A stretch of DNA of 63,037 nt from Trueperaceae bacterium (GCA_035703635.1 DASSXV010000034.1:1-63037), one strand, 5' to 3'; numbered from the stretch's first letter, positions 42,069-63,037 are shown. The notes: generated by a model from the sequence alone, not told the origin. A program made the numbers and translations.

Positions 42069-42070
42069 GT

Positions 42071-43378: not shown

Positions 43379-43403
43379 GTGGGGGCGAGTATCTCGCCCC
43401 CAC
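43379..43403 (+). terminator. Stem-loop after the binding-protein gene
   Basis: GTGGGGGCGAG-TAT-CTCGCCCCCAC perfect 11-bp stem; no U-tract. Confidence 0.55.
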
Positions 43404-43469
43404 CAGACTCAAGACTTATCTGCTTCCTCGCCGCGCCACTTGGCGCGGGGCAACGGCCCGGGAGGTGCC

Positions 43470-46826: not shown

Positions 46827-46916
46827 GGCTGATGAGTCTACGCTGCTGGTCTGGGCATTGCACAGGCCGCGTGTGCCGGACCGCACCGCATTGGCTTCGC
46901 TCAGACATACTGGTGC

Positions 46917-47342
46917 ATGCCAAGACATCTCACCACTACCGTCCACCACCTAGTAGGTCTACGTTTCGTTGCCGAGACGCCGGAAGGTCAGCGCGTGATG
47001 ATCGACAACGAGAAGCACGCACGCACGGGTCCAAGCCCGATGCAGCTCCTGCTAGGCGCGACGGCCGCCTGCGCCGCCATGGACATCGTCAACATGCTAG
47101 GTAAGCGCAAGCTGACCATCAACAGTTACCGGATTGAGATGACCGGCGAGCGCCCGGACGCCACCCCCGCCCCGTTCGAGCACATCGTCGCGCGGCACGT
47201 GTTCGACGTGCCTGGCCTCGACGAGGCCACCGCCCAGCGCTTCGTTCAACTAGCTACTGAGAAGTACTGCTCGGTCGGCTTCAGCCTCAAAGCGAGCATC
47301 GAGTACCAGGTGGAGCTGGAAGCGGCGCAGCCGCCTGCTTGA
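46917..47342 (+). CDS. OsmC/YhfA-like protein
   Basis: Motifs GPSPMQLLL..ACAAMD and EKYCSV. Confidence 0.88.
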   Translation: MPRHLTTTVHHLVGLRFVAETPEGQRVMIDNEKHARTGPSPMQLLLGATAACAAMDIVNMLGKRKLTINSYRIEMTGERPDATPAPFEHIVARHVFDVPGLDEATAQRFVQLATEKYCSVGFSLKASIEYQVELEAAQPPA

Positions 47343-47355
47343 CGCGGCGCTTGGC

Positions 47356-47607
47356 CTAGGCCTGCAGAGGGCCGCGGCCCGGCACCGGTTCGGGGCCAGA
47401 CGCGCCAGCCACGGCGGCTGAGAAGCCGGTCTGTAGGCCCATCAGGTACGAGAGCTTGAGAATGAACTCGATGGTGTCTGCGTCGTTGGCAGCGACTAGG
47501 TCCTCGATGAACTCCGTGGTGCCTTCTGGCAGCGCAACGGCCTCGATCTGTTCGGCGTGCCGCTCACGCATCTCTGCTAGGAAGCGCTCGATCATCTCCT
47601 TGTTCAT
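47356..47607 (-). CDS. ddrH: Small acidic protein resembling Deinococcus DdrH
   Basis: 83 aa; LPEG...DLV...[13 protein letters not shown] and terminal LQA match my recollection of DdrH (not verified); ATGA overlap with mgsA. Confidence 0.55.
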
Positions 47608-48047
47608 TGGGTAGTGGCTCCGTCCAGGTGCTCGCCCTCCATGGCGGCGTACTCGTCGAGCTCGGCGGGGTTGGCCAGCAGCGTTTCCAGCCACGCTACG
47701 ACGGCCTCGGCCGTCGCCAAGTTCGTGGCAAGCGGGACGCTATGAACGTCGCAGATGCGTAGCAACGCCGAGATGTCGGGTTCGTGCGGTTGCGCCGTTA
47801 ACGGGTCGCGGAAGAAGATGACGGCGAGCACCGCCTCGTCCGTGATGCGCGCACCCACCTGCAAGTCGCCGCCAAGCGGCCCAGACGCGAGGCGTTCGAT
47901 GTCAAGGTTGGTGCGCTCCATGAGCACGCGGCCAGTCGTGCCTGTCGCGATGAGCGGGAAGTGCGCGAGGGTAGCCGCGTGATCCGCGGCGAACGCCGCG
48001 AGGTCGGGCTTCTTCTGATCGTGTGCGATGAGGGCCACGGACTTCAT
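47604..48047 (-). CDS. mgsA: Methylglyoxal synthase
   Basis: Motifs [36 protein letters not shown]. Confidence 0.96.
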
Positions 48048-48123
48048 CCATCAAGTCTAGTGCCTGGCGTAGGGATAATCCGCGCCTAAGGCGCACGAGG
48101 GCGCTTAGGTACAATCGTGGACG

Positions 48124-49740: not shown

Positions 49741-49754
49741 AGCGCGCCGCGGTG

Positions 49755-51350
49755 CTAGGGGCGAGGCGTCGAGTGCTCGCTCGGCACTACGAAGCTAACG
49801 CGGGTTCCGGGTTGAGCTTGCGCTAGGGCCGCCAGGTCGCCGCGCTCTACGACGCCAACGACGGGGTAACCGCCGGTGCGCCCACGGTCGGCGAGCAGCA
49901 CTAGGGGGCGGCCGTCCGGCGGTAACTGCACTGCCCCGAGCGGCATGCCCGTCGAGGAGATGGCGGGGACCGCGCAAGAGACTTGCATGTCAGCGCGCGC
50001 GAACTCGAGGCGCACGCCCATGCGGCTCCGTTCGCTCACGACGAAACCTTGCGTTTGCAGCATGGCGAAGGCCGCCACCTCGTGGTGCGGTCCGGGGTGC
50101 AGGCGCAGGGCCAACTCACGGGAGTAGTGGCCGAGGGCCGCGCCCTGCGCTGGCGGGCCGGACGGTTGGGTGGCCTGGGCCAGCACGTCGCCTGGCCGCA
50201 ACCAGCGTCCGAAGCCGCCAACGCGTCCGCGCACGTCTGTCGAGCCGCCGCTAGCGAGGCGCGGGTGGCCTACTGCGCCGCCTAGCGGCACCAACCCCCC
50301 GGCCACAGCGAGTAGGGGTACGCCCGCGAGTTGCCGCGGCCCAGAGGCCGGGGGCGTCAGTTCGAGGATCGCTCCCGCCCGCCAAGTGAAGACCGCGCCA
50401 GGCTCGAGCTCGCGGCCAGCGAGGCGCGCCGCCGCCGCCCCGCCGAACACGGCGAGCGTGGTGCGTTCGGCTCGCAGGCGGGCGTGTGGCACGGTGAACT
50501 CAAGACTGGCATGCGTCAGGGGTGCGCCGACCACGTAGCTGAGGGCGAGGAGCAGCCGTTGATCGAGCGCGCCCGCGTCCGCCAGGCCGTAGCGGCCGAC
50601 CCCTGGCCGCGGTCGCCCCTGAAGTGAAGCAGATGTCGGCCAGACGTCTAGGACGCTTAGGAGCGCTTCGCGCTGCAGCGGGTCGGTTAGGTGCTGGCGT
50701 GGCGGCGCCGTCGGGTTGCTGGGCGGCAGGAGCTTGGCTGGCACGAAACGTAACTCATCACCGGCGCTCAGGGTCGTCGGCTCGGAGCGGTTAGGGTCGA
50801 ACAACCTGAACGCCGTCCTGCCGAGCACCCACCAACCGCCAGGGCCGGCGCTGGGGTACACGCCGGCCTGGCCGCCAGCGATGGCGACGGCGCCGGCAGG
50901 CACGTCGAGCCGTGGGCGCTCGCGGCGCGGTGTGGCAAGGCGCGGGTCGAGGCCGTGCAGGTAAGGGAAACCCGGTGTGAAGCCAAGGTACGCAACGGAG
51001 TAGCTGGGGGCGCGATGCAGCGCCACGATCTCTGGCCATGCGAGGCCAAGGCGCTCGGTCAGCGCGTCAGCGTCCGCCTGAGCGCCGTAGACGACCGGTA
51101 CCTCGAACTGCTTTGGCGTCGGCTCGGAGCCCGCGGCGCCGGCGGCGGCGGCAAGGAGTTGCGCTTCTGCGTTCGCTAGGCGACCCTCGACCAGGATGTC
51201 GGTATGGCCCGGTACGACGTCGCAGCCCTTGTCAGGCAGCGCCGCCCTGATCGCGGCGGCCGCGGCCGTTAGCCGCCGCGAGAGCTGCGGGGTCGGGGTC
51301 TCGTCGAACGCTAGGTAGCGCGCGTTAGGACCCGCCCGCACGATGCGCAT
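49755..51350 (-). CDS. 5-oxoprolinase subunit B/C fusion (PxpB-PxpC)
   Basis: PxpB motifs GFTPGFPYL, VPAGAVAIAG, PGGW; PxpC motifs SRMGVRL, GAVQLPPDG, TGGYP. Confidence 0.85.
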   Translation of the reverse strand: MRIVRAGPNARYLAFDETPTPQLSRRLTAAAAAIRAALPDKGCDVVPGHTDILVEGRLANAEAQLLAAAAGAAGSEPTPKQFEVPVVYGAQADADALTERLGLAWPEIVALHRAPSYSVAYLGFTPGFPYLHGLDPRLATPRRERPRLDVPAGAVAIAGGQAGVYPSAGPGGWWVLGRTAFRLFDPNRSEPTTLSAGDELRFVPAKLLPPSNPTAPPRQHLTDPLQREALLSVLDVWPTSASLQGRPRPGVGRYGLADAGALDQRLLLALSYVVGAPLTHASLEFTVPHARLRAERTTLAVFGGAAAARLAGRELEPGAVFTWRAGAILELTPPASGPRQLAGVPLLAVAGGLVPLGGAVGHPRLASGGSTDVRGRVGGFGRWLRPGDVLAQATQPSGPPAQGAALGHYSRELALRLHPGPHHEVAAFAMLQTQGFVVSERSRMGVRLEFARADMQVSCAVPAISSTGMPLGAVQLPPDGRPLVLLADRGRTGGYPVVGVVERGDLAALAQAQPGTRVSFVVPSEHSTPRP

Positions 51351-51352
51351 GC

Positions 51353-52120
51353 TCAGCTCGGCGCCCGCACCTGGATGCCGGCAGCGGTCAACTGCCTGCG
51401 TGCGGCCCCCGCAAGCTCGGCTGCTCCGGGCGTGTCCGAGTGGAAGCAGATGGTGTCGACCTGTAACTCCAACGTGGTGCCGTCGCTCGTGAGGAACGGG
51501 CTGCCGGTCGCCAGCGCCATGGCCTGAGCCGTCGTGGCGGCAACGTCCTCGAGGACTGCGCCCGCGCGCCTGCGGGGTGCGAGTTGCCCGCCTGCTAGGT
51601 ACGCGCGGTCCGCGAAACCCTCCCTGAGGAACGCGTGCCCCGCGCCCGCCAAGGCCGAGGTGGCGGCCGAGCCGGCTGGCAGCACGAGGCGTAAGCGGGG
51701 GTCCAGGCTAGCCAGTGCCATGGCGAGGCCGAGCGCAAGCGCCGGGTCCGCCGCCACAGCCTCGTACATGGCGCCGTGCGGCTTGACGTGCGTTACGCGC
51801 GTGCCGAGCAAGCGCGCCACGGCCTGCAGGGCGCCGACTTGATAGATGACGTCATCGATGACGCGCTCTGAAGGCAAGAGCATCGGCACGCGACCGAAGC
51901 CGCGCACGTCGGGGTAGGACGGGTGCGCGCCGACGGCAACGCCAGCTAGGGCGCAGGCGGCGACGGTAGCGCGCATGATGCTCGGATCGCCAGCGTGAAA
52001 GCCGCACGCGACGTTGGCTGAAGTGACCACGTCAAGCAGTGGACCGTCGCTGCCTGCGCCGCGCCACTCGCCGAACCCCTCGCCAACGTCAGCGTTCAAG
52101 TCGATGACCACGGTCCTCAT
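51353..52120 (-). CDS. pxpA: 5-oxoprolinase subunit A (LamB/YcsF)
   Basis: Motifs IDLNADVGE, SANVACGFHAGDP, GAHPSYPD, HVKPHGA, EGFADRAY, ICFHSD. Confidence 0.92.
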   Translation of the reverse strand: MRTVVIDLNADVGEGFGEWRGAGSDGPLLDVVTSANVACGFHAGDPSIMRATVAACALAGVAVGAHPSYPDVRGFGRVPMLLPSERVIDDVIYQVGALQAVARLLGTRVTHVKPHGAMYEAVAADPALALGLAMALASLDPRLRLVLPAGSAATSALAGAGHAFLREGFADRAYLAGGQLAPRRRAGAVLEDVAATTAQAMALATGSPFLTSDGTTLELQVDTICFHSDTPGAAELAGAARRQLTAAGIQVRAPS

Positions 52121-52161
52121 GCTACCGCCCTGCGCCGCCGCGGCCGCTGCCGGGCCGGCGC

Positions 52162-54027
52162 CTAGCCCCAGTCGGCCAGGTAGATCAGGGCGGCTGACGA
52201 CCAGGCTTGGGGTCGACATGCGGCCGGGTATGGGATCGGTGGCGAGTCGGAACGTTGGTAGCCGGCGACGAGCTCGGGGGGACGCAGGTCGGGCTGGCTG
52301 GCGGCCAAGTCGAAGAGCGCGTCGCGCAAGCGGTCAGCTTCGGCATCGAAGCCGTAGCGTTTCAAACCTGCCGCTATCAGCGCGGTGTCGTGCGGCCACA
52401 CGGAGCCGTTGTGGTAGCTCAGTGGGTTGTAGCGCAGCTCGCCGCTGGCGAGGGTGCGGATGCCCCAGCCCGAGAAGAGCCGGTCGCTCATGAGGGTCGC
52501 CGCCAGGGTTGGAGCTACTTCGTCCGGCACGATGCCGCTCCATAGGAGCTGGCCGGCGTCGGACGCCAGCACCTCAAGTGGACGCTTGTCGTGATCGAGC
52601 GCCAGGGCGTAACTACCTAGCCAAGGCACCCAGAACGTCTCGTGGAACCGCTGTTTGAAGACGCGCGCGCGCTCAGCCAAGCGCGCGGCCTCGGGTTCGC
52701 GGCCGAGCACCCGCAAGCACGTCGCCGCCGCCATGAGGGCCGCGTATGCGTACCCCTGCACCTCGGAGACGGCTACCGCGCCGCTAGCCAGGCGTCCATC
52801 GGCGTGGCTGAGGGCGTCATGCGAGTCCTTCCATGACTGAACCGTGAGGCCCTCTCCTGGCTTGGAGCCAGCGAACTCGACGAAACCGTCGCCGTCGAGG
52901 TCGGCTTCGTGGTCGAGCCAGCCGAGTGCGGCGTCTAGGTTAGGCGCCAGCTCGAGCAGCAGCGCCGGGTCCTGCTCGACCGCGAAGGTGCGCTCCAGGA
53001 GGATCATGAAGAGGAGCGTGGCGTCGATGGTGCCGTAATAGCGGCCGAACGGCACCTTGCCTGTGCGGGCCAACTCGCCCTGCCGCACCTCATGCAGGAT
53101 CTTCCCTGGCGCCTCAGCGCGTCCGGCGTCGCGCACCTTGCCCTGTCTGGCCGCGAGGTAACGCAACGTGCCTTTCGCGACGGCCGGATGGTGCGGCAGG
53201 AGCATCAAGGCCGTTAGCAGCGAGTCGCGGCCGAACGCGGTCACGAACCACGGGATGCCTGCGGCGGGCAACGGCCCGGCCGCTGAGAAGAGCAGCAACG
53301 CGCGTAAGTCGAGTTCGGCGCGGCGCAGCACCGCCGCTTGACTAGCCCGCTGGTGAGGTGGGAAGCCCTTGAGCCACTCGTCGTAAGGCAAGCCGGGCGG
53401 GGAGTCCTCAAGGGGGTCGTGGAGGGCCGCGCGCACCTTGATCTCGGTGGTCGCGCCTGGCGCGAGCGCCACGCGGTAGGTGGCGCCGTTACTCGTTAGC
53501 TCCGCCGGTGTGGGCGTGAACGTCAGGCTGATCCCCTGCTCGAGCCCGTCGCTCGCGACGTGGTCGATGCGCACGCTGTTCGCCTCCACCGCTAGGGCGT
53601 GCGTCACGGGCGACGCGGGGCGTTCATGCCACCCGCGCGCCTGAAACAGGTCGGCGAAGTCGGCGGCGAACTCCAGCCGCAGCTCGAGCTGCTGCGGCTC
53701 GAGCGAGTCGTTGGTGACGACGATGGCGTCGTCCAGCCGCGCCGCCGCCACGCTAAGCCGGCGCTGCAAGGAGAGGACCTGAGTAGGGCCCTCGATGATC
53801 GCCAAATGCTGGTTAAGTTGATCTGGGCGAGGTGAATGGTTGAGGAGCTGCTGGGCCGGCCGGTCGAAGCGCCACATGTAGCGTGAGAGGTAGCGCGTGT
53901 CGCGGCTGTAGAGCCCACGTTCCCCGCCGCCGATCTCCGCCACCTCGTCAGCTACCAAGAAGGTGTAGTTCTCTTTCAGAACGAGGTTCTTGGTGAAGTC
54001 GACCGATGCGATCTCGGTGAGTGTCAT
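52162..54027 (-). CDS. Amylo-alpha-1,6-glucosidase-like glycoside hydrolase (glycogen-debranching N-domain plus (alpha/alpha)6 domain)
   Basis: Motifs AGIPWFVTAFGRDS, PGKILHE, YYGTIDAT, QSWKDS, YHNGSVWPHD, PQAWS. Confidence 0.85.
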   Translation of the reverse strand: MTLTEIASVDFTKNLVLKENYTFLVADEVAEIGGGERGLYSRDTRYLSRYMWRFDRPAQQLLNHSPRPDQLNQHLAIIEGPTQVLSLQRRLSVAAARLDDAIVVTNDSLEPQQLELRLEFAADFADLFQARGWHERPASPVTHALAVEANSVRIDHVASDGLEQGISLTFTPTPAELTSNGATYRVALAPGATTEIKVRAALHDPLEDSPPGLPYDEWLKGFPPHQRASQAAVLRRAELDLRALLLFSAAGPLPAAGIPWFVTAFGRDSLLTALMLLPHHPAVAKGTLRYLAARQGKVRDAGRAEAPGKILHEVRQGELARTGKVPFGRYYGTIDATLLFMILLERTFAVEQDPALLLELAPNLDAALGWLDHEADLDGDGFVEFAGSKPGEGLTVQSWKDSHDALSHADGRLASGAVAVSEVQGYAYAALMAAATCLRVLGREPEAARLAERARVFKQRFHETFWVPWLGSYALALDHDKRPLEVLASDAGQLLWSGIVPDEVAPTLAATLMSDRLFSGWGIRTLASGELRYNPLSYHNGSVWPHDTALIAAGLKRYGFDAEADRLRDALFDLAASQPDLRPPELVAGYQRSDSPPIPYPAACRPQAWSSAALIYLADWG

Positions 54028-55427
54028 TCCTTGCCGCCTCCGTAGGTGACGCCCTCCATGAAGTAGCGCTGGAACACGATGAAGAGCACGATGACGGGCA
54101 GGGCGCTGAGGATGGCGCCCGCCAGGATCAGTCCCCAGTCGCCGCTGTTGCCGTAGACGTTGCGGAACGTGAGCAGGCCGATGGGCAGCGTCTTGATGTC
54201 CTCCGGCGTTGTCAACACTGCGAGTGGCCAGAAGAAGTCGTTCCATGCGCCCTGGAACGACAGGATTATCAACGCGCCGAGGGCGGGGCGCGCCATCGGT
54301 AGCACGACGCGCGAGAAGCGCGACCAGTAGCTGGCGCCGTCCATCATGGCCGACTCCTCCACCTCGCGCGGGATGGACTCGAAGAACTGCTTCATGATGA
54401 ACACGGGACCGGCGTTGAGGGCCGTGACGAAGAGGAGCCCGGGGAGGCTGTTGAGCAGCGTGGCTTGCCCCCAGAGGGAGGACAGGCCCCAGATGCCGTC
54501 GCGCAGCACGAGGTAGTTGCTGATGAACAGGACCTGCATCGGCACCATCTGCGCGAAGAGGACTAGCAGGAACATCAGGTTGCGGCCAGGGAAGCGCAGG
54601 CGCGCGAGGGCGTAACCAGCGGTGGTGGCTATGAAGAGCGTTACGACGACCCTGAAGAAGGCGTACACGAACGTGTTCCAGGTCCAGCGCATGAAGAGGC
54701 TGTCGCCGGTGGTCACGCTGCGCGCCTCCGTGAACACGCGGCGGTAGTTGCCGAGGAGGTAACCGAGGGCGCCCGGAGTTACGGCTTGGAAGGAGGCCAC
54801 TAGGCCTAGGCGCTCGAGCCTGGTCGGCGGCAGCGTGCTGCTAACGAACTCGATGGCGCGTGAGGCGGACTCGACGTCTAGTGGCAGGCGGTCGACTTTG
54901 GGCCCGGCGCCCGGATAGGTGACGGTCACGCGGTAGGTGACGAACTCGCCAGCTTGGGCGTCTGCGCCGTGCACGCCAGCGCGCCGCCCCACCTCGACGA
55001 CCGGCGCCACCACGGCGTAGTCGGCCGCGTAGTCGATCTGCTGCACGGCGCCGAGACCGCCGCCCGGCCGCCGCCGCGGGACCGTAGCCGTCGGCGCAGC
55101 GGCTTCAGTGCCTTGCGGGACGAAGTAGGTGAGTTCGACGTTGACGTTCGCGCCGGGAGCGAAACCGCCCCACAGCGGCGCCTTGGCGCCCTCGCGCCCC
55201 AGCTTGGCGGCCGCCGCCCAGTTGGCTGGGGCGAGCTGCGGGCTTAGGAGCGTCGGCGGGTACCCGAGCGGGTCGGTCTTGACGCTGGACAACGCCGCGA
55301 ACAGTAGGGGGCCAAGGAAGAGGAGCGAGAAGAGGATGAGGAGCAGGTACGCGAAGCCGGCGCGCGCCCAGCGCCGCTGCGCCTCCCAGCGCTCGCGCTC
55401 CTGCCGCATGGCGGCGCTGGCGCTCAT
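54024..55427 (-). CDS. Carbohydrate ABC permease with a large extracytoplasmic insertion
   Basis: Motifs FIMKQFFESIPREVEESAMMDGA, WNDFFWP; 467 aa with a long soluble segment after TM1. Confidence 0.88.
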   Translation of the reverse strand: MSASAAMRQERERWEAQRRWARAGFAYLLLILFSLLFLGPLLFAALSSVKTDPLGYPPTLLSPQLAPANWAAAAKLGREGAKAPLWGGFAPGANVNVELTYFVPQGTEAAAPTATVPRRRPGGGLGAVQQIDYAADYAVVAPVVEVGRRAGVHGADAQAGEFVTYRVTVTYPGAGPKVDRLPLDVESASRAIEFVSSTLPPTRLERLGLVASFQAVTPGALGYLLGNYRRVFTEARSVTTGDSLFMRWTWNTFVYAFFRVVVTLFIATTAGYALARLRFPGRNLMFLLVLFAQMVPMQVLFISNYLVLRDGIWGLSSLWGQATLLNSLPGLLFVTALNAGPVFIMKQFFESIPREVEESAMMDGASYWSRFSRVVLPMARPALGALIILSFQGAWNDFFWPLAVLTTPEDIKTLPIGLLTFRNVYGNSGDWGLILAGAILSALPVIVLFIVFQRYFMEGVTYGGGKE

Positions 55428-56566
55428 CGTTCCCCCTCGGCTCGCAAGACGGTCCGTTGCAGCGTGACGATGATGAGCGTCAGTAGCGCCAAGAACATGG
55501 CCGCGGCTGAAGCGAACCCGACCTCCGGCAGTTGCGCGCCAGGGAACATGCGGTTGTAGACGAAGTACGCGAGCGTGATGACGCTCTGCAGCGGCACCGA
55601 ACTTCCGAAGATGGCGACCTGGTCGAACATCTGCAACGTGCCGATGAGGCCGAGGGTGACGACGAGGAACGTCACTGGCTGAAGTGCGGGCACGGTGACG
55701 TAGAAGAACTGCTGAACTGAGTTGGCGCCGTCGAGGGCGGCGGCTTCGTACTGCGAGCGCGGCACGTCCTGCATGGCGGCAAGGAACATCAGCATGTAAG
55801 TAGGGATGGTGGTGAAGATGTTCTGGAACATGATCGCCGCGAGCGGCAGCGGCACGCGCAGCCAGAACGGGAAGCTAGCGGGCACTTCCTGCCGCGTCTG
55901 CAGCCAGTTGATGGCCACGTTCTGGACCTCGCGCGGGGCGAGGTAGCCGAGGAGGGCGAGGGCCGTGGTGACGATGATCGCCGCGACTAGCGCCACGGCG
56001 AGGAGGGCAGGGTCGAGGAGGCTCACCGTGCGCTGCTGGCCCGCGCCGCGCAGCCGCCGCCGCAGGCGCCAGCGCTCCACCACGACCTGGAGGCCTTGAG
56101 CTAGGACCATGACGATCACGAACGTGAGGATGATAGGGGCGTTGCGGGACACCGCGGTGATCAGGTAGTTGATCCCGCCGAGGCGTTGGAAGAGCCACAG
56201 GAAGATAAGGGTGATGACCACGCTGCTCGTTACGGCTGGCATGTAGAACGCGGAGCGGAAGAACGTCATGCCGCGTACGCGCCGGTTCACGGCTGAGGCG
56301 CTAAGCAGCGCGCCGATCGTCTGGAACGTGGTCACGATCGCGGCGAACAGCAGGGAGTTGCGCAGCGCCGTCAAGAAGCGGTCGTCTGAGAACAGGGCGC
56401 GGTAGTTGGCGAGGCCAACCCACTGCGGGGCGTTGAACAGGTCGTAGTCGGTGAACGAGAAGTAGACGGCCCGCACGCCCGCGTAGACGAAGAAGACGGC
56501 GAGGACGAGCAGGAACGGTAGCAGGAACATGAGCGCCGGCAGGAACTCGCGGCCTCTCGCACGCAC
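55424..56566 (-). CDS. Carbohydrate ABC permease with additional TM segments
   Basis: Motifs YEAAALDGAN, LIGTLQMFDQ. Confidence 0.88.
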   Translation of the reverse strand: MRARGREFLPALMFLLPFLLVLAVFFVYAGVRAVYFSFTDYDLFNAPQWVGLANYRALFSDDRFLTALRNSLLFAAIVTTFQTIGALLSASAVNRRVRGMTFFRSAFYMPAVTSSVVITLIFLWLFQRLGGINYLITAVSRNAPIILTFVIVMVLAQGLQVVVERWRLRRRLRGAGQQRTVSLLDPALLAVALVAAIIVTTALALLGYLAPREVQNVAINWLQTRQEVPASFPFWLRVPLPLAAIMFQNIFTTIPTYMLMFLAAMQDVPRSQYEAAALDGANSVQQFFYVTVPALQPVTFLVVTLGLIGTLQMFDQVAIFGSSVPLQSVITLAYFVYNRMFPGAQLPEVGFASAAAMFLALLTLIIVTLQRTVLRAEGER

Positions 56567-56589
56567 GGTGGTTCTCCCCTCGCCGTGGT

Positions 56590-56613
56590 GGGGAGGCGCC
56601 GTGGCGCCTCCCC
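56590..56613 (-). terminator. Stem-loop after the binding-protein gene
   Basis: GGGGAGGCGCC / GGCGCCTCCCC inverted repeat. Confidence 0.5.
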
Positions 56614-56637
56614 CGGTTCACGGTCATGCCGCTAGGG

Positions 56638-57864
56638 CTAGCGCGTAAGGAGCGCGTTCAGGTCCGTCTGGGCCTGTTTGAGCGCCGCTGCGGAATCGGA
56701 TGCCCCCGTCATGACGGCCGTGAGTGCGTTGTTGATGGGCGACATGTAGTCGGTGCCCACCTTGCCGAACTGGAAACCGTAGACGTTGCCGTGAGATGCG
56801 CCCTCGAACACGATCTTGTTCGCTTGCGCCTCTGCGGTGTCCTGCTTGAAGTAGTCGTTGTCGGATAGCGCCTTACGGCTTGGGATGGCGAGGCCCTGCT
56901 CGAGGATGAACTGCTGCGCTTCCGGGCTCGTGAGGGCGTCTAGGACCTTGACCGCGGCGTCTTGCACCTTGGTGTCGGCGTTGATGGCCCAGGCCACCGT
57001 GTAGATGAAGTTGCCGCTCTCGCCCGTCTTGGGCGACTTGGGCAGGAACGATGCGCCGTACTGCAGGTTGGGGGCGTTGTCGCGGAGGAAGCCGAGGATC
57101 CAGGCGCCCTCTATGGCAACGGCGGCCTGCTCGCGTGCGAGGCAGTCGCCTGGCCAGCCCGCCCCGACGTCAGCTGGCTGCACCGCGATGCCTTTGGTGA
57201 CGAGCCCGCTATAGAAGTCGAACGCGTCTGCGAACGCTGGTGACGTGATGTCGGCGCCACCGTCCGTGGTGAAGGTCGTCCAGCCGTTGGCGAACGCGAA
57301 GGCTCCGAGTCGCGCCGTATCGGCGGCGATGCAGGCCCCGTAAGTGTCCGGCTTGAGGGCCGCTACCTTGGTGAGCTTGGCCTCGAAGCTGGTCCAGTCG
57401 TCGTCTGCGTTCGGGTAATCGGTGCCGGCGGCGTCGAACATGTCCTTGTTGTAGAAGACGGCGAGGGTGTTGAAGTCCTTGGCGATGCCGTAAACGTGGC
57501 CGTCCTGCGTGAAGACGGCGTTGAGGGTGTCGATGAACGCGCTCGTATCGACCAGGCCCTCGAGCGGGAGGAGCTTGCCGGTGGCGATGAAGCCTGGCGC
57601 CACCTCGCCTGGCACGTAGAACACGTCGCCCGCCGTGCCTGCCGAGAGCGAGTTGACAAGCACCGTGTTGTAGTCGGTCTCGATGGGCTCGTACTTGATG
57701 GTGATGCCTTGATCGGCGAGCCCCTTGCCGATGACCTCGTCGATGAGGCGTTGCACGATGGCCGGGTCTTGGCCGCCGTAGCCTTGTACGCGGACTATGG
57801 TCTGGGCGTTCGCCCAACTGAAGGCGAACAGCGTCGCCAGTAGTGCCGTCACTAATCGTCTCAT
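56638..57864 (-). CDS. Carbohydrate ABC transporter substrate-binding protein
   Basis: Signal peptide MRRLVTALL..ANA; motifs YGIAKDFNTLAVFYNKDMFD, EGAW; GGAGG RBS. Confidence 0.9.
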   Translation of the reverse strand: MRRLVTALLATLFAFSWANAQTIVRVQGYGGQDPAIVQRLIDEVIGKGLADQGITIKYEPIETDYNTVLVNSLSAGTAGDVFYVPGEVAPGFIATGKLLPLEGLVDTSAFIDTLNAVFTQDGHVYGIAKDFNTLAVFYNKDMFDAAGTDYPNADDDWTSFEAKLTKVAALKPDTYGACIAADTARLGAFAFANGWTTFTTDGGADITSPAFADAFDFYSGLVTKGIAVQPADVGAGWPGDCLAREQAAVAIEGAWILGFLRDNAPNLQYGASFLPKSPKTGESGNFIYTVAWAINADTKVQDAAVKVLDALTSPEAQQFILEQGLAIPSRKALSDNDYFKQDTAEAQANKIVFEGASHGNVYGFQFGKVGTDYMSPINNALTAVMTGASDSAAALKQAQTDLNALLTR

Positions 57865-57991
57865 GGTTCCTCCGGGTCGTGCCCGATGCTTGCCCGCTGG
57901 TGGCGGGACGTACGGTCTTCGCACGTCAGCTTTCATGCCCGCTGTTGGGCGCTCGCTGGTGTGCGCTTCGCAGCGATTCACTCCTGGCGAC

Positions 57992-59032
57992 TCACTCCCT
58001 CCTCCTCGCGGTGGTGCCGCGGGCGACGAGTTGAATGGGAACCGTCTCGCTTCTCACGGGCAGTCCTTGCAACCCCTCGACGAGGAGCGTGACGGCGGTG
58101 TCGGCGATGTGCGCGATGTCTTGGCGCACGGTAGTGAGGCCCTCGGGAACGTTGAGGCCGTTAGAGATCTCTGGTAGATCGTCGAAGCCGACGACCGAGA
58201 CGTCGAGCGGCACCCTCAGCCCGAGGTCCTCTAGGGCGGCGATGGCGCCTAGGGCCATCTCGTCAGACGCCGCGAAGATGGCGCTGCAGCGGCAGCCCCC
58301 CTCGAACGCGCGCCGAACGACCCTGTACCCCCCGAGGATGGTGAACGAGCCGTCTAGCAGCCACTCGCGCTTGGGGGCGATGCCTGCCTCCGCCAAGGCC
58401 TCCAAGTAGCCGCCGTAGCGGTCCTGGAATGCTTGGTGGCTCATCAGTCCGCCGAGGTGGAGGATCTCTTCGTGCCCGAGCGCGAGGAGGTGGCGTGTTG
58501 CGTGGAGTCCGCCTGCGTGATCGTCTGGCGCTACCCAACGCGCGCCCGCGGAGCGGCCGACGAGCACGAACGGCACGCCCTGGCTTTCCAAGTACCTGAG
58601 GCGGGGGTCGTCCTCGTGTGCGCCGTGAAGGATGACTCCGTTAGGGAGCCAGGCGGGCAGGCCGTCGCTGCGGGCGGGCACTTCCTCGAAGCGGAAGCCT
58701 TCGCGCTGCAGTCGGCCGATGAGGTGCTCGAGGAAGAGCATGAAGAACGGGGTGAGGCGCCGCGTGTCGGCAGCGAGGCTCAGACCGATGTGCAGTGGCG
58801 CCTTGGAGAGCGTGCGCGCGGCGTGATCTGGCCTGTACGAGAGGTGAGCGATGCTCGCCTGAACGCGCCGCATGGTGGTGGGGCTGACGCCTGGGCGGCG
58901 ATTGAGGACGCGCGACACGGTTCCGATGCTGACGCCTGCGTGCTCAGCCACCTGTTGGATGGTGGCGCGTTCGTTAGCGCGTTCACCGGCGCCCTGGTTG
59001 GGTGCGGCGGCCTTATCGCGAGCGATACGCAC
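57992..59032 (-). CDS. LacI-family transcriptional regulator
   Basis: HTH TIQQVAEHAGVSIGTVSRVLN; motifs ASDEMA, VPLDVSVVGFDD, LTTVRQ. Confidence 0.9.
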   Translation of the reverse strand: MRIARDKAAAPNQGAGERANERATIQQVAEHAGVSIGTVSRVLNRRPGVSPTTMRRVQASIAHLSYRPDHAARTLSKAPLHIGLSLAADTRRLTPFFMLFLEHLIGRLQREGFRFEEVPARSDGLPAWLPNGVILHGAHEDDPRLRYLESQGVPFVLVGRSAGARWVAPDDHAGGLHATRHLLALGHEEILHLGGLMSHQAFQDRYGGYLEALAEAGIAPKREWLLDGSFTILGGYRVVRRAFEGGCRCSAIFAASDEMALGAIAALEDLGLRVPLDVSVVGFDDLPEISNGLNVPEGLTTVRQDIAHIADTAVTLLVEGLQGLPVRSETVPIQLVARGTTARRRE

Positions 59033-59082
59033 TCCTGCCTCCCTGCCGCGCTTGGCTGCCGAGCCGGTTGGCTGAAGCGGCT

Positions 59083-59094
59083 GTAAGCGCTTAC
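59083..59094. promoter_or_regulatory. LacI-family operator O1
   Basis: Perfect palindrome GTAAGCGCTTAC just downstream of the minus-strand promoter. Confidence 0.8.
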
Positions 59095-59110
59095 GAGTGC
59101 TGGTAGCTGC

Positions 59111-59139
59111 AGGATAGACAAGGGTGCGGGCAATGTCAA
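59111..59139 (-). promoter_or_regulatory. Sigma-A promoter of the LacI-ABC-glycosidase operon
   Basis: TTGACA-17 nt-TATCCT on the minus strand. Confidence 0.8.
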
Positions 59140-59205
59140 TCGAGTGAGCGAATCGGCGTTGTAGACGATAACTTTATGACCGACGACGCAGGTCGGCCGC
59201 CGTGC

Positions 59206-59217
59206 GTAAGCGCTTAC
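59206..59217. promoter_or_regulatory. LacI-family operator O2
   Basis: Second identical GTAAGCGCTTAC palindrome. Confidence 0.75.
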
Positions 59218-59462
59218 GGACTTCGCGCATTTCGGCGCTGCTCACCGCGATTCGAAGCGTGGATCGTCGGTGTCAAGCGCTGCTCGATCCCGTGCTACAC
59301 GCGCAATCGCAGACGGCGGAGTGGCGCCGAGTCCGAGTTTCGAGCACGGTAGCGACTGCCTCGCCGAGGAACGTCGCCGATCCCTGCCCGCCGCCGAGGC
59401 CGCAGCCACCGGGCTTTCCTGCTTTTCGCCCCCACGATTCCGCTAGTCGGCAGAGACCACGC

Positions 59463-59492
59463 TTGACAAGGTTCGCGACCAAGGTGTACTCT
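59463..59492 (+). promoter_or_regulatory. Promoter of the stand-alone 23S rRNA unit
   Basis: TTGACA-18 nt-TACTCT, followed by a boxB-like hairpin and boxA-like AACATTGACA. Confidence 0.7.
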
Positions 59493-60149
59493 TACCTTTG
59501 CCGCTCGAAAGACCGGCGAGAACATTGACAGGCGAATAGAAGGCAAGACATCAGGGCTCGAACGAGCACTTGTTCCCGTAAGGGACGAGAAATCGAACGA
59601 GCTGCGAATTGGGTTTTTTTAAACCTGAATCGCGTGTCTGCTCATACACATCAAAATGAAAATGCAAGAAATGGGTCAAGTTACTAAGGGCACACGGTGG
59701 ATGCCTTGGCAGTCGAACCGATGAAGGACGTGGCTACCTGCGATAAGCCTCGGGAAGCTGGAAGCAAGCGTAGATCCGAGGATCTCCGAATGGGGAAACC
59801 CAGTGGGGCGATCCCCCACTACCCATGACTGAATACATAGGTCATGAGGAGGGAACCCAGGGAACTGAAACATCTAAGTACCTGGAGGAAAATAAAGAAA
59901 CCTCGATTCCCCCAGTAGCGGCGAGCGAAAAGGGAATAGCCTAAACCGACTCCTACGGGAGCCGGGGTTGTAGGACCGGCAACATGGACTCGAGCGTATA
60001 GCGGAAGCGCACTGGAAAGGCGCGCCATAGCGGGTGATAGCCCCGTACGCGAAATGCGCGGAAGACTAGCCGGCACCTGAGTAGCGCGAGCCACGTGGAA
60101 TCTCGCGTGAATCTACGGGGACCACCCCGTAAGGCTAAATATTCCGACT

Positions 60150-60181
<32 letters not shown>

Positions 60182-61609
60182 GTGAAAAGCACCCCGTGAG
60201 GGGAGTGAAATAGTACCTGAAACCGTGTGCTTACAAGCAGTCACAGCCCTATGCATACCTTCGGGTATGAACGGGTGGTGGCGTGCCTCTTGAAGCATGA
60301 TCCTGCGACTTACTGGTAGTGCCGAGTTTAAGCCGATAGGCGGAGGCGTAGCGAAAGCGAGTCTGAACAGGGCGTTCAGGCGCTATCAGTAGACCCGAAA
60401 CCGGATGAGCTAGCCATGGCCAGGTTGAAGCTTCCGTAAAAGGAAGTGGAGGACCGAACCCGTTGAGGTTTAAAACTCTTGGGATGAGCTGTGGTTAGGA
60501 GTGAAAAGCTAACCGAATCCGGAGATAGCTGGTTCTCCCCGAAATAGTTTTAGGACTAGCCTCGGGGGTTCATCGATGGTTGTAAAGCACTGATTGGGCT
60601 AGGGGGCTCACCAGCTTACCAAACCCTGTCAAACTCTGAATGCCGTCGATTCATACCCCGGGAGTCAGTCTGCGTGAGCTAACTTTCGCAGACAAGAGGG
60701 AAACAACCCAGAACGCCAGTTAAGGTCCCAAAGTCATGGCTAAGTGGTAAAGGATGTGGAGACGCTAGAACAGCTAGGAGGTTGGCTTAGAAGCAGCCAT
60801 TCCTTTAAAGAGTGCGTAATAGCTCACTAGTCGAGTGTCTCTGCGCCGAAGATGATCGGGGCTAAGCCATGCACCGAAACTGCGTCAGTGCTGCTATGCA
60901 GTGCTGGGTAGGGGAGCGTTCCGTAGGCCGTTGAAGCGGTACCGTAAGGAGCCGTGGAGGTATCGGAAGTGCGAATGCAGGAATTAGTAACGATAAGAAG
61001 GGTGAGAATCCCTTCCGCCGAAAGCCTAAGGGTTCCTGAGCAAGGGTCGTCCACTCAGGGTTAGGCGGGACCTAAGGCGAGGCCGAAAGGCGTAGTCGAT
61101 GGACAGCAGGTCAACATTCCTGCCCCGCCGTCGTGGAGTGATGGGGTGACGCATTAGGATAGGCCATCCGGAGCTATGGCTATGCCCGGCGGCGTGCGAA
61201 GTCTGGAGGGATAGGCAAATCCGCCCTCCGCGTAGATGACGTACGTCGGGAAGGTCCTACGGGACTGATAACTGGTTGAATCCACGGTGCCAAGAAAAAC
61301 CTCTAAACGTTGAAGCGATGGCGCCCGTACCAAAACCGACACAGGTAGGCGAGTGTAAGAGCACTAAGGCGCGCGAGAGAACCCTGGTTAAGGAACTCTG
61401 CAAAATAGCCCCGTAACTTCGGGAGAAGGGGTCCCACGTGTAAGGTTGTCCGCAAGGATCGCCTGAGGTGGGCGCAGTGAATTGGCTCTAGCGACTGTTT
61501 ACCACAATCACAGCACTCTGCTAACCCTTATAGGGGATGTATAGGGTGTGACACCTGCCCGGTGCTGGAAGGTTAACGGGAGGGGTGCAAGCTCCGAACT
61601 GAAGCCCCA

Positions 61610-61644
<35 letters not shown>

Positions 61645-62297
61645 TAACTTAACGCTAGCTTTAGTAAAACCAAACTATATGCGGGAAACTCCTCAAAAGC
61701 CGAGCGGTACTCGTGGGCCCAAGGGCGCCACAGTAACAATCCGCCGGATACGTGGACAATCCGCAGGGAAGGCTTGGAGTGATGATCACGCCAAGAACCC
61801 TCAGAGACTATACGTTTGGGGTCGACAAGCCCAAGCGGTACGTATGAAACTCGAAGCTCAATGGATTGTCGGATTCGTCGATGGTGAAGGCTGTTTCCAC
61901 GTCGGAATAGCCAAGCACGACGGAATGACGATGGGGGTGCAAGTGCTCCCGGAGTTCACGGTAGTCCAACACGAGCGAGATGCCCAACTGTTGCACGCGT
62001 TAAAGGCGTACTTCGGTTGCGGTGTGGTGCGGAAGAATCACGGAGATCGGCTAGCGTATCGCGTCCGCGATCGCAAGTGTTTGCTCGAAGTGGTTATCCC
62101 GTTCTTCATGAAACACCAGTTGAAGACGACCAAGAACGTTGAGTTCTTGAAGTTCAGACGAGTGATTCTAGCTATGGAGAACGGCAAGCACCTGACACCC
62201 GAAGGCCTCGAAGAGATCAGACATATCGCAGAAGGCATGAACAACGGTCGACCAAGATAGAGTCCGGCCCTCCTGGAAACAGGATGGGAGAATTCCG
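61645..62297 (+). mobile_element. Group I intron in 23S rRNA at position L1931 (E. coli numbering), 653 nt
   Basis: Interrupts CCTAAGGT^AGCGAAATTCC. U before the 5' splice site pairs with G of IGS GCTTTAG, and the intron ends in G. Helices found: P3 CCAAAC/GTTTGG, P4 TGCGGG/TCCGCA, P7 GAGACT/AGTCC, P8 GGTCGAC/GTCGACC, P9 CCTG-GAAA-CAGG, P10 CGCT/AGCG. Confidence 0.96.
61844..62260 (+). CDS. Single-motif LAGLIDADG homing endonuclease, encoded in intron loop L8
   Basis: 138 aa starting MKLEAQWIVGFVDGEGCF; also LKAYFGCGVV, IPFFMKHQLKT.K, HLTPEGL...MN. Confidence 0.93.
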   Translation: MKLEAQWIVGFVDGEGCFHVGIAKHDGMTMGVQVLPEFTVVQHERDAQLLHALKAYFGCGVVRKNHGDRLAYRVRDRKCLLEVVIPFFMKHQLKTTKNVEFLKFRRVILAMENGKHLTPEGLEEIRHIAEGMNNGRPR

Positions 62298-62413
62298 AGC
62301 GAAATTCCTTGTCAGGTAAGTTCTGACCTGCACGAATGGTGTAACGACTGGAGCGCTGTCTCAACCAGGGACTCGGTGAAATTGAATTGGCTGTATAGAT
62401 GCGGCCTACCCGC

Positions 62414-62445
<32 letters not shown>

Positions 62446-62602
62446 ATAGCTTGATGTTGACGCTTGGACTGATCTGTGTAGCATAGGTGGGAGACTGTGA
62501 AGCCGGGCCGCTAGGCTCGGTGGAGTCATCGGTGAAATACCACCCTGATTGGTTCGATCGTCTAACCTGCACCCGTTATCCGGGTGGGGAACAGCGTTAG
62601 GT

Positions 62603-62649
<47 letters not shown>

Positions 62650-62771
62650 GCAAAGGTTCCCTCAGCACGGTCGGAAATCGTGCGTAGAGCGCAAGGGTAT
62701 AAGGGAGCTTGACTGCGAGACGTACATGTCGAGCAGGGACGAAAGTCGGCCCTAGTGAACCGGTGGTACCT

Positions 62772-62826
<55 letters not shown>

Positions 62827-62934
62827 ACCGCCCGAGAGTTCACATCGGCGGCGGTGTTTGGCACCTCGATGTCGGCTCGTCATATCCTGGGGCTGGAGAA
62901 GGTCCCAAGGGTCCGGCTGTTCGCCGGTTAAAAT

Positions 62935-62986
<52 letters not shown>

Positions 62987-63037
62987 GTGGGCGTAGGAAA
63001 GTTGAGGAGAGCTGCTCCTAGTACGAGAGGACCGGAG

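What the first reader, a model, noticed from the sequence alone, without database searches (positions are those of the whole stretch)
61645..62297. Intact group I intron with LAGLIDADG endonuclease at 23S L1931 in an apparent Deinococcota genome
Seen: exact splice junctions, the main core helices, an intact P7 G-binding site, and an uninterrupted 138-aa endonuclease ORF with visibly lower GC than host genes. Known: L1931 LAGLIDADG introns occur in green-algal chloroplasts (I-CpaI type), Simkania and Thermotoga, and rRNA introns are rare in cultured bacteria. Inference: a horizontally acquired, probably still mobile element. I do not recall one described from this phylum. Sites L1917, L1923 and L2593 are empty.
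Basis: partly seen in the sequence, partly recalled or inferred. Interest (0 to 1): 0.72.

Follow-up and report, generated by a model that had tools for sequence, protein, structure and literature searches.

The report
Group I intron in bacterial 23S rRNA
A self-splicing group I intron carrying its own homing endonuclease gene interrupts the 23S rRNA gene of a Deinococcota bacterium, but the same element sits at the same site in hundreds of other bacterial genomes, including this bacterium's closest relatives, so it is a new member of a known kind.

Summary
A 653-nt group I intron (61645..62297) lies after E. coli position U1931 of the 23S rRNA gene. Rfam Intron_gpI scores 57.1 bits against a cut-off of 50. 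The intron has a U.G 5' splice site and a terminal G. Helices P3-P9 are supported by covariation across 78 homologous introns. An intact 138-aa single-motif LAGLIDADG ORF (61844..62260) sits in the P8 loop and is 59% identical to the solved I-TnaI.

The host is Deinococcota (Trueperaceae-like) by 23S similarity and tree.

A scan of 185,579 species genomes found 399 loci encoding a relative. 77 of the best 80 demonstrably carry the intron at L1931, and the 80 loci carry names from 15 phyla.

Five other species of the window's own clade carry it. Their introns form one group that mirrors the 23S tree. Endonuclease divergence from the nearest relative equals that of a neighbouring host gene, and dN/dS is about 0.1. 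So the intron is an old, vertically inherited resident under purifying selection, not a recent acquisition.

L1931 LAGLIDADG introns are already published for Simkania, Thermotoga, Synechococcus and CPR bacteria. I found none published for Deinococcota. Verdict: new member of a known kind, low-to-moderate interest.

The parts
59674..63037 (+). 23S rRNA gene, cut by the window end at model position 2697 of 2925. No 16S gene and no tRNA lie upstream in the window.
   Evidence: Rfam LSU_rRNA_bacteria 2523.9 bits; ARAGORN finds 0 genes
61645..62297 (+). Group I intron, 653 nt, inserted after E. coli U1931 (L1931). The last base is G (omega-G).
   Evidence: Exon junctions read. Rfam Intron_gpI 57.1 bits. 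Same site in 77 of 80 related loci, all 77 with exon ending in T and intron ending in G.
61639..61663 (+). P1. Exon TAAGGT (61639..61644) pairs with the internal guide GCTTTA (61658..61663), with U61644.G61658 at the splice site.
   Evidence: Drawn by hand. U.G in 77 of 77 distinct rows and 100% of P1 cells paired.
61653..61656 (+). P10 5' strand CGCT in the P1 loop. It pairs with the first four bases of exon 2, AGCG (62298..62301).
   Evidence: three of the pairs are 91.5% paired and the fourth 75%. No covariation is possible because the exon is fixed.
61670..61675 (+). P3 5' strand CCAAAC, pairing with GTTTGG at 61814..61819. Only 6 nt separate P1 from P3, so there is no P2.
   Evidence: 5 of 6 pairs change on both sides; 99.8% paired
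61680..61765 (+). P4-P5 domain. P4 is 61680..61684 with 61761..61765. P5 is 61690..61694 with 61752..61756 and has one U-U mismatch in the window. The extended P5a/b/c arm is 61700..61719 with 61724..61747.
   Evidence: P4 is nearly invariant. All 7 pairs of P5a/b change on both sides (97% paired). P5c is poorly aligned (69%).
61766..61800 (+). P6 (GGG/CCC) and P6a (CTTGG/CCAAG)
   Evidence: P6 100% paired; all 5 P6a pairs change on both sides, 95.3% paired
61804..61809 (+). P7 5' strand G(A)GACT with bulged A61805. It pairs with AGTCC at 62261..62265. G61806-C62264 is the inferred guanosine-binding pair.
   Evidence: 98.2% paired, 3 of 5 pairs invariant. The assignment of the G-binding pair is by analogy with canonical group I introns (recalled).
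61820..61826 (+). P8 5' strand GGTCGAC, pairing with GTCGACC at 62247..62253. The endonuclease ORF fills the P8 loop.
   Evidence: 6 of 7 pairs change on both sides; Rfam places the large insert in the same hairpin
61844..62260 (+). Single-motif LAGLIDADG homing endonuclease ORF, 138 aa. Its last codons form the P8 3' strand and J8/7, and the stop TAG (62258..62260) abuts the P7 3' strand.
61865..61891 (+). LAGLIDADG motif IVGFVDGEG (residues 8-16). E15 is the inferred metal-binding catalytic residue.
   Evidence: G10, F11, D13, G14, E15 and G16 are invariant in 33 aligned homologues. The role of E15 is by analogy (recalled).
62268..62288 (+). P9 hairpin CCCTCCTG / CAGGA(T)GGG with a GAAA loop
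   Evidence: All 5 inner pairs change on both sides (88% paired); the outer 3 pairs are weak (65%)

Best explanation
This is a self-splicing group I intron (IC1-like core, no P2, extended P5 arm) inserted after U1931 of the 23S rRNA gene of a Trueperaceae-like Deinococcota bacterium. It is transcribed as part of the 23S precursor. The internal guide GCUUUA pairs with the exon end UAAGGU, with a U.G at the splice site. An exogenous guanosine bound in P7 attacks the 5' splice site. The terminal G then takes its place and the exons are ligated with the help of P10, restoring a functional domain IV. The P8 loop encodes a 138-aa single-motif LAGLIDADG protein, the orthologue of I-TnaI. As a homodimer it is expected to cut intron-less 23S rDNA at the L1931 site, so that repair copies the intron in (homing between rrn copies or after DNA uptake). 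It may also help the ribozyme fold. In this lineage the element is old. It was present before the six sampled species of the clade diverged, has been passed on vertically, and both RNA and protein are under purifying selection. Shown here: the site, the fold with covariation, the intact ORF, the family, the distribution and the co-divergence. Inferred: splicing, cleavage, dimerisation and homing.
For: Site and boundaries. Ribozyme: Rfam 57.1 bits against a gathering score of 50. Covariation on 78 introns: 92.0% of cells paired against 81.2% shuffled and 23-50% with slid partners, 39 of 68 pairs with double changes, 0 of 500 shuffles as high. The window deviates at only 3 of 115 highly conserved ribozyme columns (family median 2, maximum 12). 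Protein: Pfam LAGLIDADG_1 at 2.1e-23. PDB 5gkk_A at E 1.5e-51, named I-TnaI, 59% identity, TM 0.94 to the model. Host: 23S exons are 97.8/98.6% identical to L002 (a Deinococcota MAG) and 89-97% to L003, L004, L027 and L001. Every other locus with a long 5'-exon alignment is at or below 77%; three short partial loci score higher over 55-118 nt only. The six form a 100*-supported 23S clade. Age and vertical descent: the six introns form one group (95*), with window+L002 as sisters (97*). Endonuclease divergence between window and L002 is dN 0.096, dS 1.05. The LacI-like gene upstream of the 23S in both genomes gives dN 0.12, dS 0.92. Endonuclease GC3 tracks host GC (Spearman 0.83, 74 points). 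Selection: dN/dS is 0.08-0.21 in all 15 pairs of the six. Precedent: the L1931 intron/LAGLIDADG pair in Simkania, Thermotoga and Synechococcus, with vertical descent after an initial transfer (PMC1995217, passages). A CPR enzyme encoded at what I infer to be the 1931 site cleaves its target and dimerises (PMC11270868, passages).
Against: There is no experimental evidence for splicing, cleavage or homing in this organism. The window has a U-U mismatch in P5 (61693/61753) where 71 of 77 rows have U.G. There is no recognisable Shine-Dalgarno sequence before ATG 61844; most relatives have GGGAG about 10 nt upstream, while the window, L002 and L003 have a 15-21 nt insert there. Rfam reached its gathering score in only 3 of the 5 clade relatives (L002, L003, L027; not L001, L004) and not in L021. 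Synonymous distances are near saturation (dS 0.7-1.7), so dN/dS values are rough. The host calibration rests on one 94-codon block of one gene. The intron tree is a quick search with SH-aLRT support only. Only intron-bearing genomes were sampled, so I cannot say how many Deinococcota lack the intron, and loss/regain cycles within the clade are not excluded. Two of the six clade copies have altered C-termini: L002 has a frameshift and reads through the 3' splice site, and L004 has lost its stop. The structure model was confident in only one of five models (mean pLDDT 89.6, 64.8, 56.5, 47.2, 47.0). The target site shows no palindromic symmetry (best 5 of 11). Some homodimeric enzymes tolerate this, but it is not what a simple homodimer model predicts.
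Confidence: 0.85

Rival explanations
1. Recent horizontal acquisition. The intron entered this genome, or its immediate ancestor, lately from an unrelated donor and is an actively invading element.
For: The ORF's GC (52.5%, GC3 0.647) is well below that of host genes (GC3 0.79-0.89). At deep levels the intron tree needs 21 phylum changes against a minimum of 13, and starred branches force at least 3-4 changes for Acidobacteriota, Chloroflexota and Gemmatimonadota. So inter-phylum transfer does happen in this family.
Against: The nearest intron (83% identical) is in the nearest 23S relative. The six clade introns are one group. Endonuclease divergence equals that of a flanking host gene. GC3 lies near the family-wide regression on host GC, predicted 0.70 and observed 0.65. 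No copy more than 83% identical turned up in any other phylum among 399 loci.
Confidence: 0.08
2. Domesticated protein. The intron still splices, but the LAGLIDADG protein is kept mainly as a maturase or RNA chaperone for its own intron and no longer drives homing.
For: Purifying selection (dN/dS about 0.1) persists over a long vertical history, where the gain-degeneration-loss cycle would predict decay once the element is fixed. The review PMC3984707 (passage read) states that the LAGLIDADG protein of the Thermotoga neapolitana 23S intron has maturase-like activity that stabilises and activates its intron. That intron is at L1931 per PMC1995217 Table 1, and the window protein is 59% identical to I-TnaI.
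Against: The motif's acidic residue and the other invariant polar residues (Q42, R45, D46, K94, K97) are conserved in all 33 aligned homologues, as expected for an active nuclease. A CPR enzyme at what I infer to be the same site is an active endonuclease (PMC11270868). The two roles are not exclusive.
Confidence: 0.2
3. Assembly or binning artefact. The intron-bearing 23S belongs to another organism and was joined to this contig by mistake.
For: rRNA genes are frequent sites of chimeric metagenome assembly. The window ends inside the 23S. One related locus (L030, labelled Patescibacteria) carries a 23S that groups with Acidobacteriota, showing such errors exist in this data type.
Against: In the independent assembly L002, the same LacI-like gene (82% amino-acid identity over 94 codons) and the same 23S leader (85% over 204 nt) lie directly upstream of a 98%-identical 23S. 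All five clade loci share the same 23S-5S-tRNA layout without a 16S, as does the window. 59.6 kb of host DNA precede the gene.
Confidence: 0.03
4. Decayed remnant. The insert is a dead intron or intervening sequence, removed by RNase processing and leaving a fragmented 23S, rather than by self-splicing.
For: Fragmented 23S rRNAs with intervening sequences are common in bacteria. PMC11270868 reports inserts of 100 bp or more in 18.5% of non-CPR RefSeq 23S genes (passage read).
Against: All core helices are present with covariation, the U.G and omega-G are invariant, and only 3 of 115 conserved ribozyme positions deviate. The site lies in the functionally essential domain IV next to helix 69 (established knowledge), where a break is unlikely to be tolerated.
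Confidence: 0.03

Closest known systems
Thermotoga L1931 group I introns and their LAGLIDADG protein (I-TnaI, PDB 5GKK)
   Same: Same insertion site (PMC1995217 Table 1: T. naphthophila, T. neapolitana and T. petrophila, L1931, 698-700 nt). Single-motif LAGLIDADG protein. The window protein matches 5gkk_A at E 1.5e-51, with 59% identity and TM 0.94. Vertical descent within a clade after an initial transfer was also concluded there (PMC1995217, passage).
   Different: Different phylum. The protein is 138 aa against 162 aa and the intron 653 nt against about 699 nt. That I-TnaI comes from Thermotoga is my inference from the enzyme's name and Table 1; no tool gave the organism, and I found no paper. 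The primary paper (PMC196884) is not held.
Simkania negevensis and Synechococcus (C1, C9) L1931 introns
   Same: L1931 site, 654-675 nt, single-motif LAGLIDADG ORF. They are described as IC1-like with a complex P5 and no P2 (PMC1995217, passages), which is what I find here. Three Chlamydiota MAGs are among the 80 loci.
   Different: Their proteins are 143-167 aa. I had no sequences of them to align, so closeness is not measured.
CPR-bacterial 23S insertions at position 1931 and I-ShaI (PMC11270868)
   Same: LAGLIDADG_1 proteins predominate at 23S positions 1917, 1931, 1952, 2593, 2604 and 2657. I-ShaI (insertion class 23IS7, 691 nt, group-I-like flanks) cleaves its own insertion site and cross-links as a homodimer.
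   Different: That 23IS7 equals position 1931 is my inference from the order of the two lists in the text. I-ShaI is reported as 42% identical to I-CeuI.
I-CpaI and green-algal chloroplast L1931 introns
   Same: Same site and same enzyme class. PMC1995217 mentions L1931 endonucleases in chlamydomonad plastids.
   Different: Organellar host. The name I-CpaI and its properties are recalled, not from any call.
I-OnuI / I-SmaMI / I-PanMI / I-LtrI monomeric meganucleases
   Same: Each half of these two-domain enzymes aligns with the whole window protein (E 1e-42 to 1e-49; TM about 0.9, 35-38% identity).
   Different: They are fused two-domain monomers from fungal mitochondrial genes with other targets. 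The window protein is a single domain that must pair with itself.

Membership tests
Group I intron (Rfam RF00028) | Covariance-model score at or above the curated gathering score | tested here: met
   57.1 bits against 50, E 7.5e-12. Relatives L002, L003 and L027 also pass; L001, L004 and L021 do not.
Group I intron (Rfam RF00028) | P1 formed by the exon end and an internal guide sequence, with U.G at the 5' splice site | tested here: met
   UAAGGU/GCUUUA; U.G in 77 of 77 distinct rows
Group I intron (Rfam RF00028) | Conserved core helices P3-P9, including the P3/P7 pseudoknot, supported by compensatory changes | tested here: met
   39 of 68 pairs with double changes, 92% of cells paired, 0 of 500 shuffles as high. 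The MAFFT alignment was not fitted to the structure, but the structure was drawn on the window sequence.
Group I intron (Rfam RF00028) | Guanosine-binding site in P7 (G-C pair next to a bulged nucleotide) and a terminal G | tested here: met
   G(A)GACU/AGUCC is nearly invariant. The intron ends in G in the window and in 77 of 77 loci. Which pair binds G is assigned by analogy.
Group I intron (Rfam RF00028) | Self-splicing with guanosine cofactor | not testable with these tools
   Needs in vitro transcription and splicing, or RT-PCR
L1931 rDNA intron lineage (IC1-like, as in PMC1995217) | Insertion after E. coli 23S U1931 | tested here: met
   Junction read. The same junction is found in 77 of 80 loci. 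The E. coli numbering is by my recalled alignment.
L1931 rDNA intron lineage (IC1-like, as in PMC1995217) | No P2; complex P5 extension | tested here: met
   6 nt between P1 and P3. P5a/b/c are present, with P5a/b covarying in 7 of 7 pairs.
LAGLIDADG homing endonuclease, single-motif (Pfam PF00961) | Profile match above the curated cut-off, with one LAGLIDADG motif bearing the acidic residue | tested here: met
   83.5 bits against 23.1, one stretch covering residues 8-107. GFVDGEG is invariant in 33 homologues.
LAGLIDADG homing endonuclease, single-motif (Pfam PF00961) | Alpha-beta-beta-alpha-beta-beta-alpha core fold | tested here: met
   The model has H5-15, E16-24, E32-43, H44-57, E61-65, E69-74, H77-90, with TM 0.94 and rmsd 1.5 to 5gkk_A. 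Only one of the five models was confident.
LAGLIDADG homing endonuclease, single-motif (Pfam PF00961) | Homodimer formation | not tested
LAGLIDADG homing endonuclease, single-motif (Pfam PF00961) | Site-specific cleavage of the intron-less allele | not testable with these tools
   Needs a cleavage assay. The target shows no palindromy.

The most novel reading that the evidence does not exclude
The L1931 intron/endonuclease pair is a long-term, vertically transmitted and selectively maintained resident of a whole family-level clade of Deinococcota, and likewise of many other non-CPR lineages. It occurs in at least 399 of 185,579 species representatives, and the best 80 loci carry names from 15 phyla. 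It is not a transient invader. This would mean that rRNA group I introns in ordinary bacteria are far more common and more stable than the published handful of cases suggests. It would also mean the endonuclease persists against the expected gain-decay-loss cycle, perhaps because it doubles as a maturase.
Probability: 0.45. Interest if true: 0.4.

Novelty: new member of a known kind. Interest (0 to 1): 0.25.

Why it matters
For this window, very little changes: it is a correctly recognised, ordinary example of a published class of mobile intron.

There are practical consequences. The 23S of this lineage is about 650 nt longer than expected. rRNA-based annotation, primers and binning tools need to allow for that. 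The embedded ORF should be annotated as an intron-encoded LAGLIDADG endonuclease rather than a stand-alone gene.

The wider point comes from the survey rather than the window. The same element is present in hundreds of species across many phyla. Its base composition has shifted toward that of its hosts, and it is under purifying selection. The literature I could search still lists only a few bacterial cases outside the CPR. A systematic account of that distribution would be a modest but real contribution to the biology of homing endonucleases. It would also provide a source of natural variants of an I-TnaI/I-OnuI-like scaffold.

Tried and rejected
1. Longer ORF. The ORF listing gives a 216-aa frame from GTG 61610, and there is an in-frame ATG at 61679 in J3/4. 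Across 78 introns the J3/4 ATG is in frame with the endonuclease in 24 (about one third, as chance predicts) and open in only 5. So the upstream open frame is accidental, and ATG 61844 is the start that matches homologues and I-TnaI.

2. Palindromic target for a homodimer. The best symmetry is 5 of 11 positions, below the mean maximum of shuffles (5.85). This gives no support and was not pursued.

3. A second intron suggested by an extra exon-like motif about 580 nt upstream in L021, L024, L050 and L070. In L021 the 23S length (2785..6424) accounts for one intron only, and Rfam lists none there. I dropped this.

4. Rfam over 13 loci failed internally. I repeated it with 7 loci; L024, L050, L066, L069, L070 and L080 were therefore not scanned.

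Public names and accessions of the protein clusters stayed unchecked.

6. Literature on 5GKK and I-TnaI: 0 papers. Nesbo & Doolittle 2003 (PMC196884) is not held.

7. Using protein-atlas search for host taxonomy: not done, because the tool text says it is not for taxonomy.

8. Complex prediction for the homodimer: not run (see membership test).

10. Supplements of PMC11270868 (Table S2, Fig. S2) may list non-CPR bacteria with inserts at 1931. I did not open them.

Full report
**What is there.**
The Rfam bacterial LSU model covers 59674..63037 on the + strand and is cut by the window end at model position 2697 of 2925. Aligned locally, it shows one insert between ...GGUCCUAAGGU and AGCGAAAUUCC. 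Read directly, exon 1 ends at T61644 and exon 2 starts at A62298. Rfam's Intron_gpI model scores 57.1 bits against a gathering score of 50. Its alignment laid P1 on 23S helix 69, so I redrew the 5' end by hand. The ORF 61844..62260 gives 138 residues without a stop. There are no other large inserts: 3364 nt minus 653 leaves 2711 nt for 2697 model positions, and the L2593 region reads through uninterrupted.

**Ribozyme anatomy.**
- P1 is exon UAAGGU with the internal guide GCUUUA (61658..61663), with U61644.G61658 at the splice site.
- P10 is CGCU (61653..61656) with exon 2 AGCG.
- Only six bases separate P1 from P3, so there is no P2.
- P3 is 61670..61675 with 61814..61819.
- P4, P5 and an extended P5a/b/c arm span 61680..61765.
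- P6/P6a span 61766..61800.
- P7 is G(A)GACU (61804..61809, A61805 bulged) with AGUCC (62261..62265).
- P8 is 61820..61826 with 62247..62253 and encloses the ORF.
- P9 is 62268..62288 with a GAAA loop.
- The terminal G is at 62297.
- The ORF's last codons form the 3' strand of P8 and J8/7, and its stop TAG abuts P7.

This layout (IC1-like P7, complex P5, no P2, ORF running into the core) is what PMC1995217 describes for L1917/L1931 introns (passages read).

**Is the fold real?**
I aligned the window intron with 77 homologous introns, each with 10 nt of exon on either side (MAFFT). I then counted my structure on that alignment.
- 92.0% of 5065 cells form standard pairs, against 81.2% in shuffles and 23-50% when partners are slid by 1-3 columns.
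- 39 of 68 pairs change on both sides.
- The covariation score is 0.357 against 0.148, and 0 of 500 shuffles reach it.
- P3, P5a/b, P6a, P8 and inner P9 covary strongly.
- P1, P4 and P7 are nearly invariant, which says nothing either way.
- P5c (69% paired) and outer P9 (65%) are weak, partly because those loops align badly.

The structure was drawn on the window sequence, which favours it in the slid control. The window departs from the family at 3 of 115 ribozyme columns that are at least 90% conserved (median 2, maximum 12). One of these is a U-U mismatch in P5.

**The protein.**
It matches Pfam LAGLIDADG_1 at 83.5 bits with one stretch. The best solved relative is 5gkk_A at E 1.5e-51, and both halves of the I-SmaMI/I-PanMI/I-OnuI/I-LtrI monomers match at 1e-42 to 1e-49. 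An AlphaFold model built on 33 homologues has pLDDT 89.6, although the other four models were poor. It shows the alpha-beta-beta-alpha-beta-beta-alpha core. It superposes on 5gkk_A, titled 'homing endonuclease I-TnaI', at TM 0.94 and 59% identity. The motif GFVDGEG and a set of polar residues are invariant in the 33 sequences. A single-motif enzyme of this family works as a homodimer; this is established knowledge, restated in PMC11270868. I did not test that here.

**How common is it?**
The protein search found 4590 proteins at E <= 0.001 among 90% clusters, more than 120 of them at 69-99% identity, several on megabase contigs. Only the best 80 were kept. By record title these 80 are:
- 33 Pseudomonadota
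- 9 Acidobacteriota
- 6 Gemmatimonadota
- 6 Chloroflexota
- 4 Myxococcota
- 3 each of Deinococcota, Planctomycetota and Chlamydiota
- 2 each of Candidatus Eiseniibacteriota and Actinomycetota
- 5 further phyla with one each
- 4 unnamed

Three are cultured strains: Thermopetrobacter sp. TC1, Bellilinea caldifistulae and Thermanaerothrix daxensis. In 77 of the 80 both exon junction motifs flank the gene, giving introns of 616-752 nt at the same site. L034 and L065 end before exon 2. L078 has a second intron immediately upstream that masks my exon-1 motif. The window's own genome is not in that collection; the best match is 83%.

**Who is the host?**
- The 23S exons are 97.8/98.6% (5'/3') identical to L002 ('Deinococcota bacterium').
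- They are 93.5/97.3% identical to L003, 92.2/97.0% to L004 ('Trueperaceae'), 91.0/94.9% to L027 ('Trueperaceae') and 89.4/93.9% to L001.
- Every other locus with a long 5'-exon alignment is at or below 77%. Three short partial loci (L068, L063, L065) score higher over 55-118 nt only.
- In a FastTree of 76 rows the six form a clade with support 100, and window and L002 are sisters at 100. L008 and L046 fell out through my HSP filter.
- Only intron-bearing genomes could be included, and the names are the submitters'.
- The five relatives have a 23S-5S-tRNA unit with no 16S. This matches the window, where 59.6 kb upstream hold no 16S or tRNA.
- Upstream of the 23S, window and L002 share the leader (85% over 204 nt) and a LacI-like gene. 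This argues against a chimeric join.

**Recent arrival or old resident?**
- In an IQ-TREE quick tree of the 78 introns, the six clade members form one group (SH-aLRT 95), and window and L002 are sisters (97).
- Window against L002: the endonuclease has dN 0.096 and dS 1.05. A 94-codon block of the flanking LacI-like gene has dN 0.12 and dS 0.92.
- dN/dS is 0.08-0.21 in all 15 pairs of the six, though dS is near saturation.
- Endonuclease GC3 rises with host GC across 73 loci plus the window (Spearman 0.83). The window's 0.647 is close to the 0.70 the regression predicts. So the low GC reflects the family's general lag behind its hosts, not a fresh import.
- At deep levels transfer does occur. 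Phylum labels need 21 changes on the intron tree against 13 on the 23S tree.
- Two clade copies have altered C-termini: L002 is frameshifted and reads into exon 2, and L004 has lost its stop.

**Comparison with what is known.**
PMC1995217 (passages, Table 1) lists L1931 LAGLIDADG introns in Simkania, two Synechococcus strains and three Thermotoga species, besides algal organelles and Acanthamoeba mitochondria. It infers vertical descent after initial transfer in Thermotoga and cyanobacteria. PMC3984707 (passage) reports maturase-like activity for the Thermotoga neapolitana protein. PMC11270868 (passages) finds LAGLIDADG_1 genes at 23S position 1931 throughout the CPR. It also shows cleavage and dimerisation for I-ShaI; that I-ShaI sits at the 1931 site is inferred from list order. 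Searches for group I intron + 23S + Deinococc* (15 papers, none relevant by title or abstract) and Truepera + intron (7, none relevant) found no description from this phylum. The searched library omits most subscription journals.

**Verdict.**
The element is a bona fide, apparently functional L1931 group I intron with a homing endonuclease in a Deinococcota genome, unreported in print for the phylum as far as I could search. However, it is one of hundreds of copies in public genomes. It is shared with the host's relatives and was inherited rather than newly acquired. It is a new member of a known kind, with interest 0.25.

Noticed in passing
window 1..59673; L001-L004, L027: The 23S gene is not preceded by a 16S gene or tRNA in 59.6 kb. 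The five related loci show 23S-5S-tRNA units without a 16S, so this clade has an unlinked rRNA operon.
   Followed up: partly
L078:4602-5444: This Parachlamydiales genome has two group I introns 8 nt apart in the 23S. One is an ORF-less intron of about 209 nt ending just before CCTAAGGT (site L1923 by my count). The other is the L1931 intron with the endonuclease. Both pass Rfam's gathering score (68.0 and 51.8 bits).
   Followed up: partly
L030 (2200-nt contig): This contig is labelled 'Patescibacteria group', but its 23S groups inside Acidobacteriota next to Marinacidobacterales (support 99). It is probably a mis-binned contig.
   Followed up: no
L002:1300-2830 versus window 52000..59673: L002 keeps the LacI-like gene next to the 23S, but its N-terminal part no longer aligns in frame. 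The window's sugar ABC-transporter genes (55424..57981) are absent there, and a piece matching window 52002..52415 follows directly. This points to local rearrangement and possible pseudogenisation in L002.
   Followed up: partly
L002:5001-5483; L004:4857-5450: Endonuclease C-termini differ within the clade. L002 has a one-base shift near the end and reads across the 3' splice site (160 aa). L004 has lost the stop codon (149 aa from the conserved Met).
   Followed up: yes
A2 alignment: L010, L025, L031, L044 (P1 loop); L022, L041, L073, L074 (P5c); L005, L011, L025 (P5); L012, L018, L043 (P6a): Some lineages carry extra inserts of 20 to about 100 nt in peripheral loops of the same intron, for example a roughly 90-nt P6a extension shared by three Pseudohongiella genomes.
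   Followed up: no
L052 and L054: Two gammaproteobacterial species representatives have identical intron rows and nearly identical 23S (branch lengths 0.0015 and 0).
   Followed up: no
window 28180..30432 (-): A 750-aa ORF with no Pfam family at E <= 1e-5, among otherwise ordinary chromosomal genes (MurJ, aldehyde dehydrogenase, ABC ATPase, Na/H exchanger, carboxyltransferase).
   Followed up: no
window 61827..61843: The window, L002 and L003 have 15-21 extra bases between P8 and the start codon. This moves the GGGAG-like stretch, which sits about 10 nt before the ATG in most relatives, far upstream. How the ORF is translated here is unclear.
   Followed up: no
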